Shown here piece by piece: positions 1 to 14,151 of a stretch of 40,702 nt of DNA. The notes below the pieces were generated by a model. It saw only the letters and a program-made list of their open reading frames with translations. It had not been told where the DNA came from and searched no databases. The DNA comes from a virus (lineage: Duplodnaviria > Caudoviricetes), in the IMG/VR virus record IMGVR_UViG_3300032212_000052, positions 1 to 40,702 of that record; one strand, 5' to 3'. The number at the start of each line of letters is the position of its first letter. Position 1 is the stretch's first letter. A program made the position numbers and the translations under genes.

Positions 1-127
1 AATCACTGCTGTAATCCATCATTACCCCCCCCTATGTTAGTAGCTCTATTATTTTTTCTTCGTTATTCATATATCTAGATCTTCAAATGCAGATTTTATT
101 GATTCGTACATGGGTTGAATATCATAT
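1..127. repeat. 127-bp direct repeat, left copy (circular assembly overlap)
   Basis: 1-127 is identical to 40576-40702. 127 is a common assembler k-mer, and the overlap cuts through the thg1/rep junction. Confidence 0.93.
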
Positions 128-747
128 CTAACATCAAGGCCATACGATGTATTTAAAATAAAAGATCCGTTTTTCTGTTGGTCGCTTAGGTCGATTGTCC
201 AGTTTTTACCGACTTTATGTAACATTTCGTGCATATCGGATCTGTTTTTACCATGAAGATCTTTATGCGAAAAGCTTGATCTTGAATACATTTGCAAGCT
301 ATTTCTTTCCCAGTCCTTCGCCCTCCACAAAAATACATTTATAACGTCTGTAGCAGGAACATTAAACGCCCTACTATCAAAAACAGGTGTTTTATCTGTG
401 TTTAGGTGCTTTATTAGTCTTACAGACATTAAAGCTGATGAGATAGAGACTACTTTTTGCAGATTATAATTAAACCAGCCTTGAGTTTCCAAAGAATCGT
501 AATCAGTCAGACAGAATGTAACCTCGTCTGACTGAATATAGGCAGCTTTAAATCCCTGCATCTCTTCTGCAACATCTTTAGCAGCGTCAACCATTGCGTC
601 CATAAGACTGCTATCGAACGGCCTCCCCATTCCTTTCGTAAAAGTATGGAAAGCCCTCCCATCAACTCGAATTATTAGCGGCGTTCTTTGTGTGGCAAAA
701 TTTCTCGTTACCAATTCATACCTTTTAATCCTATCACCAAGACTCAT
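67..747 (-). CDS. thg1: tRNA(His) guanylyltransferase Thg1-like protein (3'-5' polymerase)
   Basis: Motifs IIRVDGRAFHTFT, YIQSDEVTF, FDSRAF and WRxxDxxRNSL, with both catalytic Asp residues. SD GGGG upstream. Confidence 0.93.
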   Translation of the reverse strand: MSLGDRIKRYELVTRNFATQRTPLIIRVDGRAFHTFTKGMGRPFDSSLMDAMVDAAKDVAEEMQGFKAAYIQSDEVTFCLTDYDSLETQGWFNYNLQKVVSISSALMSVRLIKHLNTDKTPVFDSRAFNVPATDVINVFLWRAKDWERNSLQMYSRSSFSHKDLHGKNRSDMHEMLHKVGKNWTIDLSDQQKNGSFILNTSYGLDVRYDIQPMYESIKSAFEDLDI

Positions 748-1035: not shown

Positions 1036-1566
1036 CTACCTAAAATCATCTTCAAATATATTAGATTTCCCTAAATTACAGTCCTCACATAAAATCTGTA
1101 AGTTATTAATATCAAGCTCTAATTGTGGGTATTTAGACCTTGGTTTAACGTGGTCAACGTGCAATATTATTCCGTCTTTAGGTTGTGCTCCACAACACAT
1201 ACAAGCCCTTCCACATCTTAGTAAAGCCTTATATCTTAATTCTCTCCATTTCCTGCTTCTGTAAAACTCGTTTGCCGGTCTTTTTTTAAAGTCTCTGCCA
1301 TTAATAATAAAACTGGCGAATTTTTGTATTGCGTTTTTATTTGCTTTTTTTGACCTTTTGCTTTTCCATTTTGTTTTAAGCCTAACTAATTCAGCTAGTT
1401 CTACATTTCTTATATTTGGATCAACATTAAAATATTTAATACACGCTTTCCTTGCTTCTGTAAATCTAGATGTTGCCATTCTTACGGTTGATTTTTTGGG
1501 TATAAAAGTATCTTCTTCTTTCCATTCCCAATTCTTACTAAACCCATTATCTTTATTAGTTCCCAT
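1036..1566 (-). CDS. HNH endonuclease
   Basis: CMCCG...LHVDHVKP...NLQILCEDCNLGK. Confidence 0.9.
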   Translation of the reverse strand: MGTNKDNGFSKNWEWKEEDTFIPKKSTVRMATSRFTEARKACIKYFNVDPNIRNVELAELVRLKTKWKSKRSKKANKNAIQKFASFIINGRDFKKRPANEFYRSRKWRELRYKALLRCGRACMCCGAQPKDGIILHVDHVKPRSKYPQLELDINNLQILCEDCNLGKSNIFEDDFR

Positions 1567-1912
1567 TACTTTATTCCCTATAGTTAATTATTCCAGAAAG
1601 AGTGAAGGAGAAATTAAGGCAAAGAGTACCCAAACCCACTAAAAAGTAAGTTGGTCTCCTTGCCGTTTATTCCGTCAGTCGTTCAGTCGAATAGTCGGCC
1701 TATAACATAGTGATTTTAGTTATAGTTAGCGATTCAGGAAAATTCACTTCCCCTTATCTGGGTTCGCCTTTAGAGTTCCATGCTATTTTGATAAGTCCAC
1801 GTTGTAATAGCCTAACCACATTTAACGCAACCGAGTCGAAAGGGACGTATACATTAAATATGACCTAGCAGAAAAATGAGAGGGCGTAAAAATGATTAGG
1901 TGGTAAAAACTA

Positions 1913-1943
1913 TTGACATCTGTATAAATTACTATGTTATAAT
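1913..1943 (+). promoter_or_regulatory. Sigma70-type promoter, antisense to the leftward operon
   Basis: TTGACA (1913-1918), 19 bp spacer, TATAAT (1938-1943) with extended -10 TG at 1935-1936. Confidence 0.7.
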
Positions 1944-1948
1944 TCTTC

Positions 1949-2099
1949 CCGTCTAGTGTCCCTCTCAAAAGACAAGCTAGATAACTCAATCTTACCCCAT
2001 GTTGCGTTCACTGGCAACTAAGATTGTGCCGTATCCCCTCGGTTAATAGGGGAAAATTATCACCCCCACTCTTTACCGGCCTTGTGCCGGTATTTTTTT
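1949..2099 (+). ncRNA. Putative ~150-nt small antisense RNA
   Basis: Lies between the promoter at 1913-1943 and the terminator at 2074-2099. No credible ORF. Hairpin 1952-1981 with loop CCTCTCAAAA. Confidence 0.5.
2074..2099 (+). terminator. Rho-independent terminator
   Basis: TACCGGC-CTTGT-GCCGGTA followed by T7. Confidence 0.8.
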
Positions 2100-2355
2100 C
2101 TGTTATAATATAATTAATGCGAGTAATGGCCTTGCACAACCTTAATGGGGAAAATAAATAAAACATAAGATTGCACACTTCAAAGGTGCAGATAAAATCC
2201 ACCACGCCCTTGATTTGAAAAGTCAGGTAATACGAAAGGGGCGTGGTGGTAGCCAAACAAATAGAAAGAAAGCTTATTGCGTTGCTTACCTTATATCTTT
2301 GATATTATGCGATAGGCCGCTGTAATGGCGGCTTTATCAATTAAAGGGTAATATT

Positions 2356-2529
2356 ATGGAACCAACAGAAAAAGAAATTAAACAGGCAATAAAAGATAAT
2401 CCTGATTTACCGTACAGCTTTGTAAAAAATTCGCTAATAGCAATGAGCGAAGCAGAGAGCGACGCATTAACTGCATATAAGCGTGGAAGTGAAAAATATA
2501 ATAGCGCACTTGCCGAATTATCTGATTAA
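2356..2529 (+). CDS. 57-aa orphan ParD-like antitoxin C-terminal fragment (not in ORF track)
   Basis: MEPTEKEIKQAIKDNPDLPYSFVKNSLIAMSEAESDALTAYKRG...; NPDLPYSF is the hallmark of the ParD-like antitoxin family. SD AAGGG upstream. Confidence 0.65.
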   Translation: MEPTEKEIKQAIKDNPDLPYSFVKNSLIAMSEAESDALTAYKRGSEKYNSALAELSD

Positions 2530-2652
2530 TGTATAATAAACACGCACTGATATAAAGCGCAGCCTAATGGCCGTTGGTGTACCGCCTTTGTAGGTTCTAG
2601 GCGATCTAGAATAGGTTTTTAGCTGGACTAAAAATAAATAAGAGTAGCGCCT

Positions 2653-2703
2653 ATACCCCCTCACACCCTAGAATTAGACTAGGTAATGTCAGGGGTATTT
2701 TTT
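2653..2703 (+). terminator. Long hairpin plus U-tract
   Basis: ATACCCC (2653-2659) pairs with GGGGTAT (2692-2698); inner CCTAG/CTAGG stem; T-run to 2703. Confidence 0.6.
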
Positions 2704-2743
2704 CGCCTCCATAAAAATAAATAAACTTTTTTAGTAAATTAAC

Positions 2744-2771
2744 TTGCAATTATCCTAAATACGGCTATACT
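2744..2771 (+). promoter_or_regulatory. Early rightward sigma70 promoter
   Basis: TTGCAA, 16 bp, TATACT, preceded by an A/T-tract UP-like element. Confidence 0.6.
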
Positions 2772-2807
2772 GGATGTAAGTTAGAAATTAATTGAGAGGG
2801 TGAGTAA

Positions 2808-3080
2808 ATGTATCTATATCTACTAAAACAATTAGAAGAATGCGTTGAAACTAAAGAAGGTAATAACTGGAATATCACATTATGTTCAGATGGCAGTGGT
2901 GAATTGGTTCATCCAAACGGAGAAGCACTTCATGTGTTTAATAATGAAGAAGAGCTCATTATATATGTGAAATCAATCTGTAAATGCACAGAGGCTATAT
3001 TAACCTTTGGTAAGTGTATGGAATTAATACAGGAAGGGTGGGAAGAAATTAGTGATATTGATGTTGCCGAGTGTGGGTAA
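2808..3080 (+). CDS. Hypothetical protein, first gene of early operon; its stop codon lies in the first att site
   Basis: ORF with GAGAGGG SD; ends GGGTAA|C. Confidence 0.75.
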   Translation: MYLYLLKQLEECVETKEGNNWNITLCSDGSGELVHPNGEALHVFNNEEELIIYVKSICKCTEAILTFGKCMELIQEGWEEISDIDVAECG

Positions 3081-3135
3081 CGGAAAGATTAAAAAGCGCC
3101 GCTTTCCGGCGTCTTTTTTGAATGAATTGTTATAT
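3075..3135 (-). repeat. attC site A1
   Basis: Minus strand reads ATATAAC AATTC ATTCAAAA ..hairpin.. TTTTAAT CTTTCC GTTACCC, i.e. R''-5bp-L''(extra C)-L'-6bp-R'. TAACAATTCATTCAA is the aadA-type attC left arm. Confidence 0.88.
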
Positions 3136-3154
3136 TTTTATTTATAGGTGAGTT

Positions 3155-3349
3155 ATGAAGGCTAGTTTATTACTACAACAAAGCGCAGACCCGTTTGATA
3201 CGGCATGTATGCAAGTTAGAGAAATGGAAGAAGCACTGCAAGAGCTTGTAGATCTTAAAAACTATAAAGATGAACACGGCAAGGATGAATTTTATTTAGA
3301 GAATCAGCCTAAAGCATGGAAAAGAGCAAGAGCTGTTTTGGAAATATAA
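3155..3349 (+). CDS. Cassette A1 hypothetical protein
   Basis: AGGTG SD; stop in ATATAA|C. Confidence 0.8.
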   Translation: MKASLLLQQSADPFDTACMQVREMEEALQELVDLKNYKDEHGKDEFYLENQPKAWKRARAVLEI

Positions 3350-3401
3350 CGCAGAGTTAAACGGCGCGTTAAGCGTCCGATTTTTGAACGCCTTGTTATG
3401 T
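3344..3401 (-). repeat. attC site A2
   Basis: + strand ATATAAC GCAGA GTTAAAC GGCGC..GCGTCC GATTTTT-G-AAC GCCTT GTTATGT. Confidence 0.85.
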
Positions 3402-3419
3402 GCAGGGCTTGGAGGAAGC

Positions 3420-3626
3420 GTGAGAGATAAATTTACTATTGGTGACAAAGTTAGATTAACGGAAAACCCTTTTGATGAGCAAATACCAGAAGAGGCAATG
3501 AGATTTGCAGCCGTTAATAATAAAACACATGTGGTTACACGCACCAAAGACGTACCTAGTGGGCAATGGATAAAAACTGACTTAATTAACGAATGGATAA
3601 GCTTTGGATGGTTTGTTGCCACATAA
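3420..3626 (+). CDS. Cassette A2 hypothetical protein (small beta-barrel-like; GTG start)
   Basis: GGAGG SD at 3411-3415 favours GTG 3420 over the track start 3384; FTIGDKVRL motif; stop in ACATAA|C. Confidence 0.75.
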   Translation: MRDKFTIGDKVRLTENPFDEQIPEEAMRFAAVNNKTHVVTRTKDVPSGQWIKTDLINEWISFGWFVAT

Positions 3627-3679
3627 CGGCTTTAATAAAGCGTGAGCGTAGCGAGTCGCTTTTGATTTAATTGTTATAT
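3621..3679 (-). repeat. attC site A3
   Basis: + strand ACATAAC GGCTTT AATAAAGCG..CGCTTTT-G-ATT TAATT GTTATAT; 59 bp; extrahelical G and T. Confidence 0.87.
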
Positions 3680-3692
3680 TACGGGGTAACGG

Positions 3693-3911
3693 ATGAGCAT
3701 TATTACTATCGGTGAACATCAGCACTTAAAAAACGACTATGTGTGCAGCTTTTGCGGCGATGAAAACAAAAGAGTTGTTGGACGAGCATATAAACAAAAA
3801 CGGCATGACTACCCAAAAAAGCACTATATGTTTTCTTACTGTGCGGATTGTGCATTAAGGCAAGCAGAGGAGATGGTGAAAGTTGCCCACCCGAAGCACA
3901 AGGTAATATAA
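3693..3911 (+). CDS. Cassette A3 zinc-finger protein
   Basis: CSFCG...YCADC (ClpX-type C4 finger pattern); stop in ATATAA|C. Confidence 0.75.
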   Translation: MSIITIGEHQHLKNDYVCSFCGDENKRVVGRAYKQKRHDYPKKHYMFSYCADCALRQAEEMVKVAHPKHKVI

Positions 3912-3964
3912 CAGCCAAGCTAACCAGCAAGCGTAGCGAAGTCTATGTTAGCGACCTGTTATAA
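3906..3964 (-). repeat. Array-terminal attC-like site, copy 1
   Basis: ATAACAGCCAAGCTAACCAGCAAGCGTAGCGAAGTCTATGTTAGCGACCTGTTATAA followed by ATGAGG SD; near-identical to 9302-9360 and related to 7237-7292. Confidence 0.8.
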
Positions 3965-3978
3965 ATGAGGATTAAAAT

Positions 3979-4263
3979 ATGAGCTTATTGCTAGACGAGA
4001 ATTTAAAAATGACAACAAAAGAAAGTTTACTTGTAAAGCTAACAGAACGCAGAGTTTTAGATGTAAGAATGGGCGAAATTTTCGACCTGTTGCCCAAAGG
4101 TACTACGTTAGAACTAAAGACATTTAAAACATTATTCAGGCAAAAAGAGAAAATGGATATTGAAGCGTTTTATTCTGAATTAGGGGCTTTATTGTACATG
4201 ATGTTATTTAGAATAATGGAAGAAGAAGAACAAGTGAAGGTTAATAACTGGGAGGATGAGTAA
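3979..4263 (+). CDS. Hypothetical protein
   Basis: GAGG SD; translationally coupled to the next ORF. Confidence 0.7.
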   Translation: MSLLLDENLKMTTKESLLVKLTERRVLDVRMGEIFDLLPKGTTLELKTFKTLFRQKEKMDIEAFYSELGALLYMMLFRIMEEEEQVKVNNWEDE

Positions 4264-4577
4264 TGAACCATACAGAATTACCTTGGAAAATGGAAGAACA
4301 GAATATACATACTGGCTCAATCTGTACGTGTCACGGCGACAAAGACACATGGTTTGAGGTATGGACTCAAAATTGGTCAAATGGAATTGACGCAGAAGCA
4401 AACGCCGCCTTTATCGTTAAAGCATGTAATAACCATTACAAAATACTTGATTTGTTAGATGAAGCAAGACTACAAATAGAATATTTGCATAGCAAATTTA
4501 AAGAAACCGGCTCAGGAAATATTGTGCTGTATAGAATAGAAGAAGCAATAAAACAAGTGGAGGATGACAATGAATAA
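4263..4577 (+). CDS. Phage accessory protein (HTxxPW...EANAAFIVKACN family)
   Basis: Recurrent phage early-gene motif; GGAGG SD. Confidence 0.75.
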   Translation: MNHTELPWKMEEQNIHTGSICTCHGDKDTWFEVWTQNWSNGIDAEANAAFIVKACNNHYKILDLLDEARLQIEYLHSKFKETGSGNIVLYRIEEAIKQVEDDNE

Positions 4578-4887
4578 CCCACAAGAAATGATGCAAGCAT
4601 TAATAGACGGTGAAACCTTAGAATCGTTTAACTGTAAATTAGCTAAATTAGAAGATGGTAATTTTGTTTGTGATGAAGGTTATGAAGTGCCAAACTTTAA
4701 AAATCATACGAGCTGGGATGTTCGCAAAGAACCCGCGCATATACAGGGAAATTATGGGTTTATGTATGCTAAAAAAGCAAGATTATCAAATCTTATTTTT
4801 AACACAAGGGAGGAGCTGGAAAAATATTTTGAGTTAGAGATTAAAAATAACATAGGCAAGAGCGTAAAGCTTGGAGTAATAGAATGA
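4570..4887 (+). CDS. Hypothetical protein
   Basis: GGAGG SD at 4559-4563 fits ATG 4570; overlaps neighbouring genes. Confidence 0.7.
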   Translation: MNNPQEMMQALIDGETLESFNCKLAKLEDGNFVCDEGYEVPNFKNHTSWDVRKEPAHIQGNYGFMYAKKARLSNLIFNTREELEKYFELEIKNNIGKSVKLGVIE

Positions 4888-5174
4888 ATCTTATAGAAAG
4901 CTGGAAAGAACGAGCAAAGGAAAAATACGGCTCTATCGGTGAAGGTGTGCGTGAATTAAATATGATTTTAAATATGAAACTTACACCTAGCCAGATAAAC
5001 GAAATGAGCAAAGGGAAAAGGTCTGTTCCTGCCAGCGTACAAAATATGATGATTAACGATACCTTGTTGACATCAATGGCTGATGCTGGCTTAACAGATG
5101 CGATGCTAGTGTTAACAATGGATCAGTTTTCTGAATTAAGAGATAAATTGTCATTACCGGAGAGGAAAAAATGA
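4884..5174 (+). CDS. Putative HTH DNA-binding protein
   Basis: LTPSQINEMSKGKRSVP resembles an XRE/Cro recognition helix. Confidence 0.55.
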   Translation: MNLIESWKERAKEKYGSIGEGVRELNMILNMKLTPSQINEMSKGKRSVPASVQNMMINDTLLTSMADAGLTDAMLVLTMDQFSELRDKLSLPERKK

Positions 5175-5374
5175 AATATACAAAGGACTACTTATCAAGA
5201 GATGTGGCCGGAACGATGTTAATTGGGTATATGAGAAATGTTCTTAATATGATGAAACGAACGGACAATCCAACAGAAGCAGATTATAAGGCATATATTG
5301 GCGCGTTTGATTTTATGCTTAAATGTTATGATGAAACTATTGAAGAATTAGAGAAAATAGAAAGGAGAATATAA
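5171..5374 (+). CDS. Hypothetical protein
   Basis: GAGG SD; ATGA overlap. Confidence 0.7.
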   Translation: MKYTKDYLSRDVAGTMLIGYMRNVLNMMKRTDNPTEADYKAYIGAFDFMLKCYDETIEELEKIERRI

Positions 5375-5568
5375 TGGCTATTTATATTTGTGATGAGCGC
5401 GGAAACTATAAAGATGATGATTATTTTCCTTGCGTTGAACATCCGAAAGGCGGTGATTTTTGTTGCGAAGAATGTGCAGACGAGATTGAATACCAAATAG
5501 AGAAAGATGAACTTAAAAAGCTTGCATCAAAAAATCAAAGAGAAGTTGAGGCGGGGCTGAAAAAATGA
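5374..5568 (+). CDS. Small Cys-rich hypothetical protein
   Basis: AGGAG SD; CCEEC motif. Confidence 0.7.
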   Translation: MAIYICDERGNYKDDDYFPCVEHPKGGDFCCEECADEIEYQIEKDELKKLASKNQREVEAGLKK

Positions 5569-5741
5569 GCTTACATACACAGGAAGAAAATATAGCAATG
5601 GCTAAGATAATAATTAGAGAATTAATAGCCTTCGATAATAAATGTAATAATCAGGAGTTTCCAGATAAAGCGATTCAGTGTGAGGAGTTAAAGAAAATCA
5701 CGGCGCTGGCTCGTATTGTTGGGGCGGATTTGGGGGAATGA
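5565..5741 (+). CDS. 58-aa hypothetical protein (not in ORF track)
   Basis: ATGA overlaps on both sides and fills the operon gap. Confidence 0.6.
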   Translation: MSLHTQEENIAMAKIIIRELIAFDNKCNNQEFPDKAIQCEELKKITALARIVGADLGE

Positions 5742-6040
5742 GTTTCTTTAAAGATAACCCAGTAAGAAGCAAGAAATATCTTAAATGGATAGATGGGCTT
5801 GATTGTTGTTTATGTCACGCACCCGCAGACACGCATCACCATATTATTGGGATAGGTGACGGAATAATGGGTGGTAAGGCATGTGACCTGCTTTCTATGC
5901 CTGTTTGCACTGGCTGTCATGCACTTTTCCATCGGCAACACGAAAACCCAGAACTTAAACTTGAGCAATGGGAATACGTGGCGAAAACATTACAGAAGGC
6001 CATAAAGGACGGAATCATTAAGGGTATTAAAGTCGCTTAA
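5738..6040 (+). CDS. DUF968-like putative HNH/Zn nuclease
   Basis: RSKKYLKWI..CCLC..HHIIG..GGKACD..PVCTGCH pattern. Confidence 0.75.
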   Translation: MSFFKDNPVRSKKYLKWIDGLDCCLCHAPADTHHHIIGIGDGIMGGKACDLLSMPVCTGCHALFHRQHENPELKLEQWEYVAKTLQKAIKDGIIKGIKVA

Positions 6041-6248
6041 GCGTATCAGGGTTAAAGCCCTTATCAATCACATTTTGACGTTTAGAGGTTGGAACACCAC
6101 CATTTTTTAACCAGTTGTAAAGCGTGCATTTTTTATTCTTGTCGCCTAGCAACTTTTTAGCGGCAAATGAAATTGAGCCAAATTCGTCCAATAAGTTTTG
6201 GTGTAGCTCAGTTTGTTCTAATCGTTGTACTTGAGAACGCATATTCAT
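6027..6248 (-). CDS. Cro-like HTH regulator
   Basis: FGSISFAAKKL..TLYNWLKNGGVP pattern; divergent from the promoter at 6262. Confidence 0.65.
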   Translation of the reverse strand: MNMRSQVQRLEQTELHQNLLDEFGSISFAAKKLLGDKNKKCTLYNWLKNGGVPTSKRQNVIDKGFNPDTLKRL

Positions 6249-6261
6249 TTGAAAATAATCC

Positions 6262-6300
6262 TTGCATAGTTATACTATATGTGTATAATGTAACACATAG
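6262..6300 (+). promoter_or_regulatory. Rightward sigma70 promoter with overlapping palindromes (possible operators)
   Basis: TTGCAT, 16 bp, TATAAT (6284-6289); ATAGT-TAT-ACTAT and ATGTGT...ACACAT dyads. Confidence 0.6.
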
Positions 6301-6330
6301 AAAGTAAACATTCAATACGGAGATAGTTAG

Positions 6331-6462
6331 ATGATTCCAGAAGACGAGCTAAAAGAATTAATGGAAGAACGCGAAGAAAAAAGAATAGAAGATTTAGATT
6401 ATCAGGAAGAGTGTAAACAAGAGCGGTCTGATTGGGATATGAATGATAGTGATTATTTATAA
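6331..6462 (+). CDS. 43-aa acidic hypothetical protein (not in ORF track)
   Basis: GGAG SD; MIPEDELKELMEERE...; stop in TTATAA|C at the start of array B. Confidence 0.65.
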   Translation: MIPEDELKELMEEREEKRIEDLDYQEECKQERSDWDMNDSDYL

Positions 6463-6497
6463 CGGCGATTAAAGTTAATTAACTAGGGATAAAGAAA

Positions 6498-6785
6498 ATG
6501 TCCAAAGAAACCAAAGGACAAGGAGCAAACGCCGCGTTAGGCGGTCAAAAAGAGCGACTTTTTATACGTCCGATTAATTGTGATCAGGTTGCATGGATTC
6601 TGGATATTGCTGAAAGATACTTACCAAATAAGATAAATGTAGGAGTTTCCCAGCAAAGGGAGATGCAAAAATATGCAATGTTGTACGAAATAATGGAAGT
6701 AGCAAACCTTAAATTTGAGAATGATGAAGCAAGATGGAATGGTACGCCTAACCAAGCAAGGCTTTATGTCCGCGAGGACGTATAA
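6498..6785 (+). CDS. Cassette B1 hypothetical protein; N-terminus read through an attC remnant
   Basis: GAGCGACTT-TTTATACGTCC at 6552-6571 matches the reverse complement of the gene end GGACGTATAAC at 10 of 11 positions. Confidence 0.75.
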   Translation: MSKETKGQGANAALGGQKERLFIRPINCDQVAWILDIAERYLPNKINVGVSQQREMQKYAMLYEIMEVANLKFENDEARWNGTPNQARLYVREDV

Positions 6786-6855
6786 CGGCACTATTAACAG
6801 GCGCGCGGTAGCGCGTCCAAGCGAGGAACGAGCGATGTTGAATGATTTGTTATGG
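6780..6855 (-). repeat. attC site B1
   Basis: + strand GTATAAC GGCACT ATTAACA ..two hairpins.. TGTT-G-AAT GATTT GTTATGG. Confidence 0.87.
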
Positions 6856-7242
6856 CGTGATGCTTCCACATCTCCAGAAGATGGAACGGAGTTTCAAGGC
6901 TGGATAATTGCTGAGGATGGCGCTGGATTCTGGGAGCCGCGCTGCAAACTTGACGAAGACGGAACGCTTGGAATATACGGGCGTGTTGATTATGACAAAG
7001 ATGGCTGGGACTTTGGGCTATGGCATTTAAGAATTACACACTGGATGCCTCAACCAAGTGAGCCAGACATGATAGACATGATGAGCGAAGACGCATTGCG
7101 CTATGAACTGCGGGGCGTGATCACAGAAGTTGATAGTCTTAGAAAGGCTTTTGAACACACGCATGTTAATAATGGTGAAGATGACGCTTGCGCTGAGTGT
7201 GGGCTGGATATTAGAAACCCTGTACACAGGCGAGTCTTATAA
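6835..7242 (+). CDS. Cassette B2 DUF551-like protein with C-terminal Zn-binding extension
   Basis: GAGGA SD and ATG 6835 lie inside the attC; ITHWMPQPSEP is the DUF551 signature; CAECG..H tail. Confidence 0.7.
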   Translation: MLNDLLWRDASTSPEDGTEFQGWIIAEDGAGFWEPRCKLDEDGTLGIYGRVDYDKDGWDFGLWHLRITHWMPQPSEPDMIDMMSEDALRYELRGVITEVDSLRKAFEHTHVNNGEDDACAECGLDIRNPVHRRVL

Positions 7243-7292
7243 CAGCCAAGCTAACCAGCCGCGCAGCGGTCTGAATTATCGACCTGTTATAT
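7237..7292 (-). repeat. Array-terminal attC-like site, copy 2
   Basis: ATAACAGCCAAGCTAACCAGC...GTCTGAATTATCGACCTGTTATA shares both arms with 3906-3964. Confidence 0.75.
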
Positions 7293-7312
7293 AATAAATA
7301 GAGAGGGTAAAA

Positions 7313-8476
7313 ATGAATAATCAAGAATTAGTTATAGCAACACAAAATATTGATAAATCAGTTACTGATGCAGCCGCACAGTTTGTATCTACTATTTCAC
7401 AGTACAAGTGGGAGTTAGTACCTGACTCACAATTAGCGGCCGCTAAACAGACCCTAATGAAAAATGACTATATTATGGGTATTGCGTCTAGCAGCCCAGA
7501 ATCAGTACAAGAAGCTTTAGTTCAGGCCGCTATTCTTGGCCTTGATTTAACAGAAGGAAAGCGGCAGGGCTGGTTGTTACCGCGTAAAAACCAATTTAAA
7601 AAGACGGTTATCCAATTACAAGTAGGTTATAAAGGTGTAGAGGCCATTCATCAAAGAATGGGTGTTATTGACCGCTTAGTTATTCGTACAGTGCGCGAAA
7701 ATGACGAGTTTGAATGGTCTGGAGACGATCAAGAAAAGCCAATGCATAAAGCAGATTGGTTCGCTAGCAATGAAAGTCGAGGAGCAATATCAGGTGGTTA
7801 TGCAATTACCTATTATCCTGATAAATCCATAAATGTGGTTGTTGCACCTATCACCACTATTTTTGAAAAGCACCGTGACCGATCAGAGTCTTACAAGTCA
7901 TATAAGGCTAAAGTGGATAAGGGTGAGTGGGCTTATGAACCACCTTGGGTATCTGATGAGCAATCAATGGTCGAGAAAACAATGGCCTATATCGCAGCTA
8001 AACAATGGCCTGCTAATATTCGTAATGAGGACAGAGCATCAAAAATACTTGAAACCTTGCACGAAACAGACGTAGCAGATTATACATACGGTTACACTCA
8101 GGAACAGAAAGAATATTTTTATAAATTTATAGACGAAAACGATCCATTAGGCATGTATTTGTTTAGCAAACATGTATTAACAGAAGTTTATATTGCTTTG
8201 TATCAGGGGCTAATTGCGTCCATTCCAAGAGGCGGCAAAGGTAAGCGGAGAGAAGAACACGAAAAATTTATGCAGCAGGGAGATGATATATTTCATAATA
8301 TTATAACCGCAATTTCTTCTCATGACGTAGGTTTATTGACTGAGAGCGTAGAAGGTATATTAGTCATAACTGAAAAATTATTGCTTAAAAAGTTAGACGA
8401 AAAAGACCAAGATGAATACAAATCAATGATGAAAGATTCTGAAGCAATAGAAACAGGCTTAGATGAAAAAGTGTAA
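7313..8476 (+). CDS. recT: RecT/Redbeta-family ssDNA annealing protein with long C-terminal extension
   Basis: AAILGLDL..GWLLPR..QLQVGYKG..VRENDEF..PW...MVEKT motifs. Confidence 0.88.
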   Translation: MNNQELVIATQNIDKSVTDAAAQFVSTISQYKWELVPDSQLAAAKQTLMKNDYIMGIASSSPESVQEALVQAAILGLDLTEGKRQGWLLPRKNQFKKTVIQLQVGYKGVEAIHQRMGVIDRLVIRTVRENDEFEWSGDDQEKPMHKADWFASNESRGAISGGYAITYYPDKSINVVVAPITTIFEKHRDRSESYKSYKAKVDKGEWAYEPPWVSDEQSMVEKTMAYIAAKQWPANIRNEDRASKILETLHETDVADYTYGYTQEQKEYFYKFIDENDPLGMYLFSKHVLTEVYIALYQGLIASIPRGGKGKRREEHEKFMQQGDDIFHNIITAISSHDVGLLTESVEGILVITEKLLLKKLDEKDQDEYKSMMKDSEAIETGLDEKV

Positions 8477-8678
8477 GGATACAGAGTCAGTCAAAGGCTG
8501 CGGAGATATTAAACCTGATACCGAATTTAGGATTATTCGCACCAATAAAACAACAGGAAAAGCATATAGAGAAAGGTTATGCAATGAGTGCAGAAAAAAG
8601 AGCCGGAGAACAAAAAAGAAAGGTATTCCAGTAGATGAAGCGAATCTTTATAATAAGTTTAATCAGCTTATGGGATAA
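8463..8678 (+). CDS. Zinc-finger hypothetical protein
   Basis: KKC..GCG..K...EF...LCNECRK. Confidence 0.65.
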   Translation: MKKCKDTESVKGCGDIKPDTEFRIIRTNKTTGKAYRERLCNECRKKSRRTKKKGIPVDEANLYNKFNQLMG

Positions 8679-8696
8679 AATTATAGGAGCAAAACA

Positions 8697-8795
8697 ATGA
8701 ACCAACACGAAGAAATAGCCAATAAGTCATTAAAGCAAGGCTTTATAGCTGGGTTTATATGCTGCGCCCTATTAGTGTGGATTTTTATTTTATAA
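8697..8795 (+). CDS. 32-aa membrane peptide (not in ORF track)
   Basis: AGGAG SD; MNQHEEIANKSLKQGFIAGFICCALLVWIFIL; stop in TTATAA|C. Confidence 0.6.
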   Translation: MNQHEEIANKSLKQGFIAGFICCALLVWIFIL

Positions 8796-8822
8796 CGCAA
8801 CTATTGAAGAGAATTGTTATGC
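8790..8822 (-). repeat. Internally deleted attC site C1 (33 bp)
   Basis: TTATAAC GCAACT ATTGAAGA GAATT GTTATGC: both R boxes and spacers kept, central stem lost. Confidence 0.7.
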
Positions 8823-9022
8823 AGTTACAAGATATTGAAGACGCATGGAACAAACAAGCAGATGAATACAACCAATGGTTCGATCTTGGTTCAGATGAAA
8901 AAGTGGAATTCACTATTAAGTATGTTCGTGAGGTAAGCGCGGAAATCTGTCGCGAAACTGGAAAGTACAGCGATTGCATTGATATGGCGCTAAGGTGTGC
9001 CGATGCTATTGTTGATGCATAA
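8819..9022 (+). CDS. Cassette C1 hypothetical protein
   Basis: Probable ATG lies within GTTATGC; ends TGCATAA|C, complementary to GTTATGCA. Confidence 0.7.
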   Translation: MQLQDIEDAWNKQADEYNQWFDLGSDEKVEFTIKYVREVSAEICRETGKYSDCIDMALRCADAIVDA

Positions 9023-9088
9023 CGGCGCTGCTCAGTTGTTGCGACTGAGCGCAGCGAAAGAGCAATCAACTGGGACAACTTGTTATAA
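9017..9088 (-). repeat. attC site C2
   Basis: + strand GCATAAC GGCGCT GCTCAGTTG...CAACTG-G-GAC AACTT GTTATAA. Confidence 0.8.
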
Positions 9089-9103
9089 ACAAACGGAGAT
9101 ATT

Positions 9104-9307
9104 ATGCAAAACGAATTAATGAAGTACGACCCCGCATATGGTTATGAACGACCTTACCCATCACATGCTGAACAATGGCGAAGGTATCACGGCAAGACCG
9201 CATGGATTTTTAACCCGTGGACTGGCGCAAGACGAAACCCTAGTGCTATAGGTAGCGATACTTTTGGTAATGCGATTGTTGATAGTAAGCCGAGTACGGG
9301 GCTATAA
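9104..9307 (+). CDS. Cassette C2 hypothetical phage protein
   Basis: GGAG SD; Trp/Pro-rich YPSHAEQWR..AWIFNPWTG; stop in CTATAA|C. Confidence 0.8.
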   Translation: MQNELMKYDPAYGYERPYPSHAEQWRRYHGKTAWIFNPWTGARRNPSAIGSDTFGNAIVDSKPSTGL

Positions 9308-9360
9308 CAGTCAAGCTAAACAGCAAGCGTAGCGAAGTCTGTTTTAGCGACCTATTATAA
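9302..9360 (-). repeat. Array-terminal attC-like site, copy 3
   Basis: ATAACAGTCAAGCTAAACAGCAAGCGTAGCGAAGTCTGTTTTAGCGACCTATTATAAATGAGG; GTT changed to ATT at 9354. Confidence 0.8.
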
Positions 9361-9372
9361 ATGAGGTGAATT

Positions 9373-9672
9373 ATGACAACTAAAGAAACAAACGACGAAA
9401 TATACGAAAGGTTTGATTTTAAAATCGCGCTGTCTGAGAAGATAGATTTTAATATTGAGCTCGTTGGTAAGTATGCAAAAGCTGCAAAAGAAGCAGAAGA
9501 CGAACAAACAAGAAAAGAATGCAAGCGTATGGCAAGGAGAGGACGCAAGATTCTATCGACACAAAGAACAGAAAGACTAAAGCTATCATCTAGGGAGATA
9601 GCCAAGCAGCTAGGCTTAGATTTTTACAGGGTGAAATATTTATACCGTGAATATGTGGGCGGCGGACTTTAA
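9373..9672 (+). CDS. Putative HTH protein
   Basis: C-terminal LSSREIAKQLGL; GAGGTG SD. Confidence 0.65.
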   Translation: MTTKETNDEIYERFDFKIALSEKIDFNIELVGKYAKAAKEAEDEQTRKECKRMARRGRKILSTQRTERLKLSSREIAKQLGLDFYRVKYLYREYVGGGL

Positions 9673-9690
9673 AAAATAGGAAGAATTATT

Positions 9691-9966
9691 ATGAGTAAAG
9701 AATATGGAATAACGCCAGAACAGTACCACGCTGCGTGTAAAAAGTTATGGGATGCGCTAGATAATAAGGAAGATGGTGTAAATGATGTGTTTACTCTTTG
9801 CGCTAATAAAATCGAACAACTACAAGAAGTAATAAATATGTGTGACGAAACACTAAGTGATGATTTTAATTTAGAAAACGAAGATTTACCTCTTTATTCT
9901 GAGCAAGCCGTTAATCGGGTTCATCGTGAGCTGTCCGGACACGCGTGCTGGCAAAGTAAGGAATAA
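9691..9966 (+). CDS. Hypothetical protein
   Basis: AGGA SD; operon position. Confidence 0.7.
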   Translation: MSKEYGITPEQYHAACKKLWDALDNKEDGVNDVFTLCANKIEQLQEVINMCDETLSDDFNLENEDLPLYSEQAVNRVHRELSGHACWQSKE

Positions 9967-9968
9967 GC

Positions 9969-10307
9969 GTGAAGATTGACGTTAAACCGTTATCTATGAA
10001 TATGGCATACCGAGGTGGAAAAAGGTACAAAACGCCACGTTATAAGCAGTTTATTAATGATTGCTTGGTTAATTTAAAACCAATGAAAATACCTGATGGG
10101 AACTTAGAATTTCACATTCAAATCGGGGTTAGCAGCAAGGGTTTTGATTTAGATAATTGCTTAAAACCGTTTATTGATGTTTTACAAAAGAAATACGGGT
10201 TTAATGATAACCGCATTTATCATATCGGCGCATACAAGAGAATTGTGCCAAAAGGAAAAGAATATATAAGTTTTGATATATTTGAGGCGATAGAAAATGA
10301 CTGTTAA
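9969..10307 (+). CDS. rusA: RusA-family Holliday junction resolvase
   Basis: PLSMN..Y; DLDNCLKPFIDVLQ..FND catalytic motif. Confidence 0.85.
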   Translation: MKIDVKPLSMNMAYRGGKRYKTPRYKQFINDCLVNLKPMKIPDGNLEFHIQIGVSSKGFDLDNCLKPFIDVLQKKYGFNDNRIYHIGAYKRIVPKGKEYISFDIFEAIENDC

Positions 10308-10746
10308 ATGTACCAGCAAAACCAGCTACCGCAAAACAAAAGAAAGCGGCCAAGAGTCTACGCAAGCTGAGAAGATATTTAATATAATCGACTTAGGCGG
10401 CAAGCTAACAATGCAGCAGATATTGTCGATTTATCGCGGTAAGTGGGGAGATATTGAATACACATCAATTTCTGCTCGATGCAAATACTTAAAAGGTGAT
10501 GACGAGCTAGGAATACCCGCTAGAATTTTTGAAGTAGGTACAGGAAAGTGCCCGATTTCTGGAAAAACCGTTAACCTTTTATCGTCAACAAAAGAAAAAG
10601 GGTTTGGCGAATATCAAGCGTGGGTAGAGGGTGGTAAAACCAAAAAAGAACAGCTAGCCCGATTCGCAAAAGTACCCGACCATATGAAAAAGCGCGTCCA
10701 GTCTCACATGAAAACGGTTATTGCTTTAAAAGGGCTTAATAAATGA
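10297..10746 (+). CDS. Winged-helix-like hypothetical protein
   Basis: LTMQQI...SISARCKYL...KCPISGKTV pattern. Confidence 0.6.
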   Translation: MTVKCTSKTSYRKTKESGQESTQAEKIFNIIDLGGKLTMQQILSIYRGKWGDIEYTSISARCKYLKGDDELGIPARIFEVGTGKCPISGKTVNLLSSTKEKGFGEYQAWVEGGKTKKEQLARFAKVPDHMKKRVQSHMKTVIALKGLNK

Positions 10747-11075
10747 GCAACTTCATAACAGATAGCGAAATAGAAAAGGCGCTAAATTATCTTAGGGATA
10801 CATCAGAGAATTACGCCAAATGGAAGGGGCGCATGAAATACCTTGAGAGCCACAGAAAGAGCGTAAGAAGCTCGGAGGTTTTAAGGGCAACAGGTAAGAC
10901 AATAAGTGAGAATGTCCACAGAGGCGAAGCGTCCGAGGCTTACAAGGATATTTTAAAGGAGTATGAAGAAGCGGTTTACGAATACACGCTATTGGACGCA
11001 ATGAGAGCAGCAGCAGAGGCCAAGATTGAAGCATGGCGAACTCTGAGCGCAAGCTATAGAAAAGGAAATGTATAA
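10743..11075 (+). CDS. Helical protein, UvsY-like recombination mediator family (tentative)
   Basis: All-helical with AEAKIEAWRT C-terminus, typical of phage UvsY-like proteins. Confidence 0.5.
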   Translation: MSNFITDSEIEKALNYLRDTSENYAKWKGRMKYLESHRKSVRSSEVLRATGKTISENVHRGEASEAYKDILKEYEEAVYEYTLLDAMRAAAEAKIEAWRTLSASYRKGNV

Positions 11076-11370
11076 CGAAGCAATGGACAAACCACGAGCA
11101 AGCAAAATGTCATTAATAGAGCGCATAAAAAAGCAATCAAAGTTATTTATAGATGCTAACGTATGGGATGGAGAGGATAGAAGTGGGTGTAATAATGACT
11201 GGGTAAAGCATAGTCCTGATGATTTACAAGAGTTAGTTGACGACTTAATTGAGCATGTATTAATAAAAGAACTTGAAGCGCGGGATAAGATTCTAGACGA
11301 TATAGATTCAAGAATAGGCGAGGGCTGGACAGAAGGCTTAGCCAAGGCATTAATTAAGGCGGGTGAATAG
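11068..11370 (+). CDS. Hypothetical protein
   Basis: ORF in operon; start uncertain. Confidence 0.65.
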   Translation: MYNEAMDKPRASKMSLIERIKKQSKLFIDANVWDGEDRSGCNNDWVKHSPDDLQELVDDLIEHVLIKELEARDKILDDIDSRIGEGWTEGLAKALIKAGE

Positions 11371-11740
11371 TGATATGGGCAGCATTCGCTCTTTGGTATA
11401 AATAAATGAAAGAGTTTAAATGTGCAAAATGCACAAAGTATAAAAAAATAGAATCATTAGCCTATACTTATACAAGCAAACAAGGCAAGAGAAGGGTGTG
11501 CACAGCATGTGAGGAAGCGATAAGAGAGGCTGTAAAGAGATTAAAGGGCTAAACCCTCCAACAGCTTGCCGGTAGCTGTGCCCAGAAAACCGGCATTAAT
11601 TTAGGAGGTATAATTATGAATGCAAAAGTAATAAGCCTTACAAAGTACAAAGTAAATAAATTACTAAAAAATAGACCGAATCTAAGCGAAAAGGCCATAG
11701 ACAGGATTTTAGAGGTAATACGGAAGAAAGATAAGGCAAA

Positions 11741-11989
11741 ATGAACTTTGATAAAATGCTAAAACTGTATCAAGAAGACCCAAAACAGTTTGAGGCTGAA
11801 TCTGAGCGCCTGCAGCAAGAGAACATCAAAGATATGTGTAATGGGGACGAAAGGTGCGAATGGCGCTTAAATGGGCTGTTATTCCGTATAAACAAAGAAG
11901 CCAGCGAGTATATTAACCCAGTAGCAAGATTAAATTTCGTTATTTCACGATTCTATACATTTATAAGAGATAATTATGGAAACAAATAA
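11741..11989 (+). CDS. DUF3135-like protein
   Basis: FDKMLKLYQEDPKQFE...RLNGLLFRIN...NP..RL pattern. Confidence 0.65.
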   Translation: MNFDKMLKLYQEDPKQFEAESERLQQENIKDMCNGDERCEWRLNGLLFRINKEASEYINPVARLNFVISRFYTFIRDNYGNK

Positions 11990-12072
11990 ATACTTCTATC
12001 AGATAGTTAGGCAAGTTTACTGCACCAGAGCAAAACGCCAGAAAATAGACGTATATGCCTGATGCTTAATCC

Positions 12073-12252
12073 TTACTTGTTGTTGCAGCTTATAGAAGTA
12101 GCCTTAGCGGTGGCTTTTAGAGAGATATTTTTACAGTTTGAAAAAGCATCATGATCTAAAAGCGATTCAGGGTCATGTTTAGGTTTTAATGTACAGCCAG
12201 TAGATATAAGCAAGAGCATAATTAAAACGAATGTTAGTATTAAATATTTCAT
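12073..12252 (-). CDS. 59-aa predicted lipoprotein (not in ORF track)
   Basis: GGAGG SD; MKYLILTFVLIMLLLISTG-C lipobox. Confidence 0.65.
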   Translation of the reverse strand: MKYLILTFVLIMLLLISTGCTLKPKHDPESLLDHDAFSNCKNISLKATAKATSISCNNK

Positions 12253-12840
12253 TGTAAATCCTCCGGTGTTATATGTTCCGCATCAGTGAAGATGTCTTGA
12301 ATAAACGCCTCAAGGTCATCATCTGACAGCGTTTCGAGTAATGTTTCAGGTATTCCATACTCGACTAAAAAAGCAATTTTCTGTTCCCTTTTCATTTGCT
12401 TGCCTCCTTGTTACCTGTTAAACTAAAGAAAGTGTTATGGTGCATCACATTTTCTTTCAGCTTATCCCTATTTATAAAAATGATCTGACAACAACATCAT
12501 CATAAGAAGGCTTACAACCTGTGGCGAACCAATAAACAGTAGCATTTCCTGTTAGTTTATAAAATTCATCCCAGTTCATTTATTTAGCTCCTCATAGATA
12601 ACGATAGCGGCAGATATAAAAGCATCATCTTGAAAGCTCACAGGTTCTAAATCCGCCCACGTTAAACCCTCCTTCATAGAGTAGCCCTTCTTTCGTAATA
12701 GTGCGTTAATTGTAATTACATATTGTTCTAGCATGGTTCACCTCAAAGTTAATACAAGTAATATACAGACCAAAAGGCCAACGATAGGCGAGATAGTAAA
12801 CGCCCAGATTATTAGTGCTAATATGATTAGAAAGCCCATA

Positions 12841-13119
12841 TCAGTTTAAATCTGCCAAGATATACTCACCTGAATCAATCTTAGCTTGTGTTTCTTTCTT
12901 GGTCTCACCCAAGAACTGGTTACGGTATTTTCCCGTAGTGACTGAGTAATCCCATTTATTACGATCAAGCGTAATACTTGAGCCATTGCTGGGCTTAAAG
13001 GCAATAACAGAGCTGTACGATTGAAAAAACTTACCTTCTTGGCCGTAGTGTTCGCCCTGCACAATAAATTGATTGGCTACCTTGTTTCCACCGTTTGTTG
13101 TCATGTTTTCTACTTTCAT
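12841..13119 (-). CDS. Conserved phage early hypothetical protein
   Basis: VANQF..FQSY.S.IA..WDYSVTTGKYRNQFL family pattern; AAGGGG SD. Confidence 0.8.
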   Translation of the reverse strand: MKVENMTTNGGNKVANQFIVQGEHYGQEGKFFQSYSSVIAFKPSNGSSITLDRNKWDYSVTTGKYRNQFLGETKKETQAKIDSGEYILADLN

Positions 13120-13121
13120 TT

Positions 13122-13304
13122 TTATTCCCCTTGATCATCTTCAACATCTTGCGCCATTACATCATATTGCTCATCGGTAAAAAGAAACAACTCATTTACG
13201 GCCTGATGTAACGCTAAAAAGTTTGCCCTTAATGTATACAAATACTCATCATTAAAAACCAATAAAGATAATTCTTGATCGCTGTAGTCTCTTAAATCTT
13301 GCAT
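13122..13304 (-). CDS. Acidic hypothetical protein
   Basis: AGGAG SD; part of a leftward small-gene operon. Confidence 0.75.
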   Translation of the reverse strand: MQDLRDYSDQELSLLVFNDEYLYTLRANFLALHQAVNELFLFTDEQYDVMAQDVEDDQGE

Positions 13305-13698
13305 TTTTAGTTCTCCTAACGTGAAATTATGTTAAAATTAATACCAGCCTAAAAGTTCTTTTTGTCTTTTAGTGCCGTTTTTATCTCTCGATAACCTGAC
13401 AATCATGTTATTTACTCCTGTTTCGTTATTTGATGTTGTAACTATAGTTAAACTTTTAAAGTATAGCCAATTTAATGTTTTTATAAGGCGCATAAGTTTT
13501 GTTTATGGCTAATTTGTGCTATTCTTTAGAGTATGAGCAAGGTATATACAGGTGACAGGCCATTCAGTGATCACGTACAGGACTTGGTGAACCTGTACGG
13601 TATGAATCCAGAAGCAGTGAATAAACGCACAAGGCAAAAGAAAGAGCCAGATAGAAAACAATCTATACAAATAAGAAAGCTAAAGAGAGAAGCAGGCA

Positions 13699-14151
13699 TT
13701 GAATAAACAACAACAAAAATGGTTTAATTATTTCCTTGAATCAGGCGACTCAGTAAAAGCTGTAGAAGTTGCATATCCCGATGTTAGTAAAGCAAATAGG
13801 AGCTCTAAAGCCTGTAATCTGCGTAAACGATTTGCTCTAGAGATTGATAAAGCAAGTCGAGAAACTTACGGACAACATGCACCTACAATGCTGAATGTTA
13901 TCAAAACCATAGCCTTGGACTGCGACCAGCCAGCCGTCAAACTCAAAGCAGCTAGTGAATGGCTAACCAGAGCAGGACATGACGCAGCTCAAGTAGTCGA
14001 ACTCAAAGAGACCGCAACACATGAACAGCTACTAGAAAGACTCAAGATAGCTATGACAGGACTACCTCAAGAAGTGATTAATGCTGCTTTACCTAAAGAG
14101 CTACTTAATCAACTATCCACCGAAGAACCTCAGAATGAAACAACTCATTAA
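13699..14151 (+). CDS. terS: Terminase small subunit (putative)
   Basis: N-terminal NKQQQKWF..Y..G...KAV..AY HTH; VKLKAASEWLTRAG; first gene of the late region. Confidence 0.7.
   Translation: MNKQQQKWFNYFLESGDSVKAVEVAYPDVSKANRSSKACNLRKRFALEIDKASRETYGQHAPTMLNVIKTIALDCDQPAVKLKAASEWLTRAGHDAAQVVELKETATHEQLLERLKIAMTGLPQEVINAALPKELLNQLSTEEPQNETTH

What the first reader, a model, noticed from the sequence alone, without database searches (positions are those of the whole stretch)
3906..9366. Every array ends in the same conserved phage 'docking' site, placed where attI would be
Seen in sequence: the internal attC sites all differ, but the right-most site of each array (3906-3964, 7237-7292, 9302-9360) belongs to one family, ATAACAGYCAAGCTAAMCAGC...GTCT...TTAKCGACCTRTTATA. 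Copies 1 and 3 differ at about five positions and share the downstream AATGAGG SD. They have T rather than G at the L-box extrahelical position, and are followed by backbone genes (including recT) that do not end in TAAC. In canonical attC orientation (minus strand) they come first in each array. Removing array C's cassettes rejoins TTTATAA|C with (A)TTATAAA, a matched pair apart from the G>A change. Inference: these are resident acceptor sites, an attC-like substitute for attI, dispersed through the early region.
Basis: partly seen in the sequence, partly recalled or inferred. Interest (0 to 1): 0.8.

Follow-up and report, generated by a model that had tools for sequence, protein, structure and literature searches.

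The report
Phage hairpin anchor for gene cassettes
Each of this phage's three rows of swappable one-gene cassettes ends at the same short, predicted DNA hairpin, which stays with the phage backbone while related phages carry different cassettes in front of it, so it likely serves as a fixed docking point for an integron enzyme that would be borrowed from the host.

Summary
Confirmed and extended. The window is a complete 40.6-kb phage with no tyrosine recombinase and three attC arrays whose genes run backwards to the sites. Each array ends in the same 56-59-nt hairpin. Collection scans gave 12 copies in 8 viral records from about six lineages. All 12 close an array, none is internal, and none was found in 185,579 prokaryote genomes. 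Relatives keep the flanking genes and the hairpin but carry wholly different cassettes, with breakpoints at the AA|C crossover. The hairpin is an attenuated attC: it never has the G16 bulge (0 of 12; ordinary sites 13 of 23), has a covarying stem and an invariant spacer, and is predicted to fold well on both strands. It likely works as a backbone-fixed partner for host IntI in attI's position, but it is neither attI nor a canonical attC. Against: no empty site was found (0 of 12); one relative ends only 1 of 3 arrays this way; published G16 mutants are poor attC x attC partners, so it may be a stopper rather than an acceptor. This scan found inverted phage arrays before on other DNA, ending in attI-like sites; a hairpin dock was not among those notes.

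The parts
2808..3080 (+). Backbone gene left of array A; its stop codon supplies the left junction
   Evidence: 90% nucleotide identity to L009 up to the junction, unrelated after it
3075..3135 (+). attC A1 (bottom strand on +, G16); travels with cassette 3081-3349
3344..3401 (+). attC A2 (G16); cassette 3350-3626
   Evidence: same site type twice in G002 with other genes
3621..3679 (+). attC A3 (G16); cassette 3627-3911
3906..3964 (+). Dock A: R' box 3906-3912 (crossover 3911|3912), spacer 3913-3918, L' 3919-3925, loop, L'' 3945-3952, spacer 3953-3957, R'' 3958-3964
3979..4263 (+). Backbone gene right of dock A
   Evidence: 90% amino-acid identity to the gene after the dock in L009
6331..6462 (+). 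Backbone gene left of array B
   Evidence: homologous in L009 up to the junction, then a different cassette
6457..6567 (+). attC B1, damaged (G of R'' changed); holds the start codon (6498) of its cassette gene; cassette 6463-6785
   Evidence: sequence; predicted R-box pairing 0.03
6780..6855 (+). attC B2 (G16); cassette 6786-7242
7237..7292 (+). Dock B (short-loop type, one L-stem mismatch)
7313..8476 (+). RecT-like annealing protein, backbone gene right of dock B
   Evidence: phrog_148, E 1.3e-31; replaced by ERF + YqaJ in G002
8697..8795 (+). Backbone gene left of array C
   Evidence: 283 of 300 nt upstream of the junction identical in G002
8790..8822 (+). attC C1, internally deleted (33 nt); cassette 8796-9022
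9017..9088 (+). attC C2 (G16); cassette 9023-9307
9302..9360 (+). Dock C (G of R'' changed to A; crossover triplet on the left intact)
9373..9672 (+). Backbone gene right of dock C
   Evidence: 93% amino-acid identity to the gene after the dock in G002

Best explanation
The three sites are one family of backbone-fixed, attC-like hairpins that close inverted cassette arrays and likely act as the standing recombination partner for an integron integrase presumed to come from the host, in the place that attI holds in a bacterial integron. Shown: each cassette is [attC hairpin + gene + stop codon] and joins the next unit at AA|C; the dock stays with the downstream backbone gene; different cassettes sit in front of it in relatives; the phage encodes no tyrosine recombinase. 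Inferred: an excised cassette circle recombines its folded bottom strand with the folded gene-sense strand of the dock at the left AA|C, so it lands just before the dock and inside the early transcript. Inferred: the dock is short and folds almost always (extra pairs inside the R box), which would make it available from double-stranded phage DNA. Inferred: it lacks G16 while keeping T23, which would weaken synapses in which it takes part and weaken dock x dock synapses most, so the last cassette is rarely lost and the backbone between docks is protected. Inferred: docks reach new places by ordinary mosaic exchange of array-plus-dock modules, not by IntI.
For: Terminal in 12 of 12 arrays, 8 records, about 6 lineages with next to no shared DNA. 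Same flanks with different cassettes at locus A (3 versus 3 other cassettes, L009) and locus C (2 versus 1 other, G002); divergence starts within 1-4 nt of the crossover. The outer three bases of each R'' match the NEXT site's left arm in 18 of 23 cassettes versus their own left arm in 1 of 23. Twelve different cassettes abut a dock, 8 with a perfect junction. L stem: 5 of 6 pairs show compensatory change, 0 of 500 shuffles reach the covariation score. Position 16 is G in 0 of 12 docks and 13 of 23 internal sites (Fisher p 0.0009); T stands at 23 in 11 of 12. Predicted R-box pairing: median 0.96 (sense) and 0.98 (antisense) for docks, 0.49 and 0.19 for internal sites. Array sizes are 1-4 with five arrays of one cassette and none of zero, as expected if the last cassette is hard to excise. 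Damaged attCs lie away from the dock (B1, C1, second site of G001a), none next to it. No PF00589 or TIGR02249 match in the window.
Against: No empty dock among 12, and no skipping joint in the single run laid, which may be the source sample. In Bouvier 2009 (PMC2727003, sections 12 and 20) G16>T cut attC x attC deletion 68-fold, loss of all extrahelical bases in one site cut it 130-490-fold and full spacer pairing cut bottom-strand recombination 27-fold, so the dock should also be a weak partner for insertion. The antisense strand is predicted more stable in 12 of 12 docks, opposite to ordinary attC (Nivina 2016). Dock-side junctions are no cleaner than the others (8 of 12 versus 10 of 11 perfect). 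Conservation of the spacer sequence is not explained by IntI chemistry as published. The host and its IntI are unidentified. The family was collected with spacer-based patterns, so the spacer signature and part of the folding result are circular; position is not.
Confidence: 0.58

Rival explanations
1. Stopper, not acceptor: the dock is a crippled attC that only pins the end of the array. New cassettes enter mainly at the stronger internal attCs, the dock-side cassette is the oldest and changes rarely, and the family is kept because it resists deletion.
For: Loss of G16 and partial spacer pairing are the changes that suppress attC x attC recombination. No empty site. Dock-side junctions are slightly more worn (8 of 12 versus 10 of 11 perfect).
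Against: All 12 docks have a different neighbour cassette, also at orthologous loci of close relatives. A dead site would not need a covarying, highly foldable stem. Damaged attCs are distal, not proximal.
Confidence: 0.2
2. Homology linker: the conserved ~55 nt is a landing pad for RecT/ERF annealing that swaps whole arrays between co-infecting phages; IntI acted on it only once or a few times.
For: RecT in the window and ERF + YqaJ in G002. Loop types are shuffled among loci: the docks of L009-A and G002-C are 47 of 49 identical while orthologous docks differ more. G002 has a dock at a locus where the window has none.
Against: Annealing needs sequence identity, yet the L stem has diverged with compensation across lineages. 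It does not explain 12 precise AA|C junctions.
Confidence: 0.08
3. An RNA hairpin of the early transcript (processing, pausing or translation control) whose 5' foot happens to offer a secondary (attG-like) IntI target.
For: It lies on the sense strand just before a ribosome-binding site. The invariant internal loop suggests a sequence-reading partner. The two wobble substitutions in the L stem are valid on the sense strand.
Against: Such an element should mostly occur without cassettes, yet 12 of 12 have one. Box spacing and T23 match attC exactly. No Rfam match at any dock. In G003 no sense gene follows it.
Confidence: 0.08
4. Ordinary attC of an old or giant cassette: dock plus the downstream backbone block up to the next TAA|C is one large multi-gene cassette, so A, B and C form one array.
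For: R'' of dock A is the exact complement of the left arm of B1, 2.5 kb on; the G001a dock has its exact complement near the end of the following NinB-like gene.
Against: These 7-mers are the commonest R boxes here. B to C1 and G002 C to D match only 2 of 3 outer bases. The last docks have no partner. Blocks keep their order in relatives and vary inside by ordinary mosaicism. It does not explain why one family always leads such blocks.
Confidence: 0.06

Closest known systems
attI of integrons (attI1, attIA of Vibrio cholerae)
   Same: Fixed, non-mobile site at the head of the array in canonical orientation; crossover in the AAC triplet; no G16; published as the preferred insertion point (10.1101/2020.11.24.395434, passages).
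   Different: attI is recombined as double-stranded DNA and lies beside intI and Pc. The dock is a covarying hairpin, has no integrase beside it, occurs three times per genome, and lies downstream of the cassette genes in transcription.
attC sites (attCaadA7, VCR; anatomy in PMC5027507 and PMC2727003)
   Same: R-L-loop-L-R hairpin, 6/5 spacers, far extrahelical T23, length 52-59 nt.
   Different: No G16 in 12 of 12; spacer conserved in sequence and partly paired; antisense strand predicted at least as stable; belongs to the backbone, not to a cassette.
Phage CALINs (Qi et al. 2023, PMC9892861)
   Same: Clusters of attC sites in phage genomes without an integrase; phage attCs there recombine with IntI1.
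   Different: In the parts read (section 3.4, part 2 of the text, passages) the arrays are called typical or divergent; no genes inverted to attC and no resident hairpin acceptor are described.
attG secondary sites (10.1101/2022.09.11.507474)
   Same: Cassettes can be inserted by IntI outside an integron; probably describes the non-hairpin ends of most inverted phage arrays.
   Different: attG is a three-base, double-stranded, unstructured target; the dock is a conserved 52-59-nt hairpin reused across phages.

Membership tests
attC | Imperfect palindrome with R and L boxes and 6/5 spacers, AAC/GTT core | tested here: met
   12 of 12 aligned, 93.8% of cells paired; dock C has A for G in R''
attC | Extrahelical G16 in L'' | tested here: not met
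   G in 0 of 12; 8 fit only an unbulged stem, 3 only a T or A bulge, 1 either (registers read by eye)
attC | Far extrahelical T23/24 | tested here: met
   T at 23 in 11 of 12, at 22 in the twelfth; bulged in most predicted folds shown
attC | Unpaired spacer of free sequence; bottom strand more stable | tested here: not met
   Two extra pairs in 12 of 12 (selected by the search) versus 0 of 23 and 0 of 149 other sites; bottom minus top +1.24 versus -1.16 kcal/mol
attC | Part of a mobile cassette | tested here: not met
   Stays with backbone genes at loci A and C while the cassettes change
attC | Bottom strand recombined by IntI | not testable with these tools
   Needs a recombination assay; 12 precise junctions are indirect support
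attI | First, non-mobile site of the array with crossover at the core triplet | tested here: met
   12 of 12 arrays
attI | Adjacent intI gene | tested here: not met
   No TIGR02249 match over cut-off in 5 records; PF00589 absent from the window, G001, G002, G005, G006 and present only as 405-417-aa proteins in G003, G004
attI | Unstructured, recombined as double-stranded DNA | tested here: inconclusive
   Covariation shows a selected hairpin; which form recombines needs an assay
attI | Pc promoter expressing the newest cassette first | tested here: not met
   Genes face the dock, so promoters lie at the far end; promoter-like matches at 2744 and 6249 are within chance (19 found, 31.8 in shuffles)
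attI | Preferred insertion site; empty form exists | tested here: inconclusive
   0 of 12 empty; no skipping joint in one run
CALIN | Two or more attC sites without an integrase | tested here: met
   Seven cassette attCs (two damaged) in three clusters; no integrase

The most novel reading that the evidence does not exclude
Phages have evolved a portable hairpin substitute for attI: a one-way acceptor whose invariant spacer is read by a host IntI or a helper, which captures cassettes but resists excision and dock x dock deletion, so that unrelated phages plant several integrase-free mini-integrons in their early operons and draw on a shared, phage-specific pool of backwards cassettes.
Probability: 0.33. 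Interest if true: 0.85.

Novelty: new variant of a known kind. Interest (0 to 1): 0.66.

Why it matters
Integron substrates are taught as three kinds: double-stranded attI, folded attC and loose attG. A natural, recurring, backbone-fixed hairpin without G16 would be a fourth, and it gives a ready test of what G16 and the spacer do in directing insertion versus excision. It would also give a concrete mechanism for part of phage mosaicism: small early genes swapped at fixed points by a host enzyme.

Tried and rejected
Exact 21-nt consensus in IMG/VR: 0 hits. RecT as bait in IMG/VR: no relative. Window 2700-9700 against 50,697 GenBank phages: no match. Three single docks against GenBank phages and one against plasmids: only partial matches of 18-31 nt; the one inspected lies inside a Vibrio phage gene. 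Two dock patterns in 185,579 prokaryote genomes: 0 hits; exact patterns miss variants. Dropped as chance by fold and context: 2 of 6 metagenome loci (L010, L011; 3 more were the window's own contig), 17 of 23 loci, 3 of 10. The weak look-alike at 36001 is inside an ORF and is not found by the model. Sequencing runs: one holder, possibly the source; its one joint (3132 to 9014) comes from another contig with attC-like pieces and is not an empty site. Rfam on 1500-13500: one sub-threshold match at 2034-2099, none at a dock. Promoter scan within chance. Idea that the dock is an attC facing the other way: rejected, because spacer lengths and T23 put the bottom strand on +, like the internal sites. 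Idea that genes travel with the downstream hairpin: rejected, because the left-most hairpin differs between relatives and several genes start inside the upstream hairpin. Earlier scan notes by place and by sequence: nothing.
Full report
What the window is. A complete phage of about 40.6 kb with a 127-nt terminal repeat. PHROGs on 58 chosen ORFs gives terminase, portal/adaptor, major head protein, RecT, a RusA-like protein and several HNH proteins, and no integrase. Six-frame searches for PF00589 and TIGR02249 find nothing in it. The best terminase matches are 51% to an unclassified phage, 49% to a Pelagibacter phage and 43-44% to Vibrio phages, so the host is unknown.

The observation. The sites span 3906-3964, 7237-7292 and 9302-9360. 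Seven other attC-like sites precede them in three clusters (A: 3075, 3344, 3621; B: 6457, 6780; C: 8790, 9017). On the gene-sense strand they show bottom-strand geometry (a 7-base L box after a 5-6-base spacer, an 8-base L box with G at position 16, a 5-base spacer), so genes are inverted relative to canonical cassettes. B1 has lost the G of R'' and C1 is cut to 33 nt.

The family outside the window. Pattern scans found 12 copies in 8 records: the window (3), metagenome contig L009 (1), and IMG/VR records G002 (2), G001 (2), G003, G004, G005, G006 (1 each). True hits were told from chance ones by fold and context; the dropped rows are counted under Tried and rejected. G001, G003, G004 and G005 share 0-120 aligned bases with the window, G006 1,260, L009 and G002 about 2,500, so there are about six lineages. 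Two exact patterns gave 0 hits in 185,579 prokaryote genomes. A covariance model of the 12 scores them at 52-78 bits (by construction) and the best ordinary attC at 19-21 bits.

Position. All 12 close an inverted array of 1-4 cassettes (3, 2, 2, 3, 1, 1, 4, 1, 2, 1, 3, 1); none is internal and none is empty. If the family took a random place in its array, one array per lineage would give about 1 in 960 (hand arithmetic). Downstream neighbours differ: unknown genes, recT, a NinB-like gene (weak Pfam match), and in G003 a convergent gene that stops at the other end of the hairpin.

Same flanks, other cassettes. At locus A, L009 keeps the left gene (245 of 270 nt identical), the dock (46 of 52) and the right gene (90% amino acids), but holds three unrelated cassettes. 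At locus C, G002 keeps the left flank (283 of 300), the dock and the right gene (93%), and holds one unrelated cassette. At locus B, L009 keeps the left gene and diverges at the junction; its dock end is outside the locus. Divergence begins within 1-4 bases of AA|C. No cassette gene of the window recurs in the seven other records as held. The outer three bases of each R'' match the next site's left arm in 18 of 23 cassettes and their own left arm in 1 of 23. Since the left-most hairpin changes between relatives and several genes start inside the hairpin before them (window B1, G001a, G003, G006), the unit is hairpin + gene + stop, and the dock body belongs to the backbone. Twelve different cassettes are joined to docks, 8 with perfect junctions, so the left AA|C of the dock is a repeatedly used crossover. 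At a fourth locus G002 has an array and dock where the window has neither; homology starts some 15-20 nt right of the dock. That points to mosaic exchange as the way docks spread (inference).

Anatomy. In the alignment the R core and two further pairs inside it are constant, the internal loop is nearly constant, and the L stem varies with compensation: 5 of 6 pairs change on both sides, 0 of 500 shuffles reach the score, and slid registers pair 24-47% against 94% (these controls do not remove relatedness). The unbulged register pairs 89% of L cells, the bulge-at-16 register 79%; by eye 8 docks fit only the first, 3 only the second (T or A bulge), 1 both. Position 16 is never G (10 T, 2 A) against 13 of 23 internal sites; T23 is kept in 11 of 12. 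The two extra pairs occur in 0 of 23 internal sites, and that spacer signature in 0 of 149 sites from an independent sample. Docks are 52-59 nt, are predicted to pair the R box with median 0.96 and 0.98 on the two strands (internal: 0.49, 0.19), and the antisense fold is the more stable in 12 of 12 (internal up to 100 nt: sense more stable in 17 of 19). Caveat: the searches required the spacer, so its conservation and part of the folding contrast are built in.

How general. An independent scan with an ordinary attC arm gave 99 loci. Of these, 53 distinct loci with a scored anchor were walked; 23 reached a final junction. I tested 22 (one ran off its locus): 15 showed no bottom-strand hairpin, of which one is a canonical top-strand attC and one probably a long attC, and 7 looked like further attCs. 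The model found no dock in the 99 loci. G005 has three arrays: one ends in this family, one in a different short hairpin with T16, one in a non-hairpin junction; it also has a solo hairpin at a gene boundary. So the dock is one uncommon solution among several.

Mechanism. IntI cleaves the folded bottom strand in AAC; G16 is bound in trans to hold the attC x attC synapse and the far T in cis to block the L box (PMC5027507, passages). In PMC2727003 (sections 12, 20 and passages) G16>T barely affects attC x attI but cuts attC x attC deletion 68-fold, and loss of all extrahelical bases on both sites abolishes it. High folding probability allows recombination from double-stranded DNA (PMC5371416, passages). 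Insertion into attC sites is documented though attI is preferred (10.1101/2020.11.24.395434, passages). The dock combines high foldability with the loss of G16. I infer a site that is always presented but a weak synaptic partner: it takes cassettes, gives up the last one rarely, and hardly recombines with another dock. This fits arrays that shrink to one cassette but not to none, and a genome that tolerates three docks in direct repeat around recT. The same data allow the stopper reading, in which growth happens at internal attCs; sequence cannot separate the two. The invariant loop is unexplained.

Literature and novelty. Seven searches listed no paper on inverted phage arrays or a hairpin acceptor. 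Qi 2023 (PMC9892861; part 2 of 7, section 3.4, passages) reports 17 phage CALINs. Its supplements were not read and could hold such sites. Also seen: PMC11641012 (passages), PMC12614218 (abstract), 10.1101/2022.09.11.507474 (passages). The library lacks most subscription papers. Unchecked notes of this scan already describe inverted, integrase-less phage arrays ending in attI-like sites; the part that is new here is the conserved hairpin terminus.

Verdict. Real feature; observation confirmed; interpretation partly supported. New variant of the integron system. Interest 0.66.

Noticed in passing
G005:C1:10221-10272, 12821-12871, 14011-14290 (+): A solo short hairpin at a gene boundary with no cassette before it, a second array ending in another short T16 hairpin before an ssb-like gene, and a one-cassette array ending in a non-hairpin junction. 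The solo site may be an empty dock of another family.
   Followed up: partly
window 6457-6567; L001, L017, L048 first sites: Long attC sites that contain the ribosome-binding site and first codons of their cassette gene, so the right arm of the site is translated.
   Followed up: partly
window 6457-6567, 8790-8822; L009 4792-4830: The attC that follows a dock-led backbone block is damaged in 3 of the 4 cases seen (intact in G002 D); this may protect the block from excision.
   Followed up: no
L051-L149: Inverted attC cassettes are common in viral contigs: 23 of 53 walked loci reach a matching downstream junction and several more chain 2-5 sites.
   Followed up: partly
L112 about 3490-3550 (+): An inverted cassette ends at a canonical top-strand attC, as if inserted into the wrong strand.
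   Followed up: no
G003:C1:41058-41112: A convergent 368-aa gene stops exactly at the antisense AAC of the dock; no attC was found at its start.
   Followed up: partly
window 7313-8476 versus G002: RecT is replaced by ERF plus YqaJ in the block between arrays B and C.
   Followed up: partly
window 67-747 (-): The phage encodes a tRNA-His guanylyltransferase-like protein (phrog_4717, E 1.8e-80).
   Followed up: no
window 2034-2099: Sub-threshold Rfam match (SorX, 29.6 bits against 46.6) over a hairpin and T run in an intergenic stretch.
   Followed up: no
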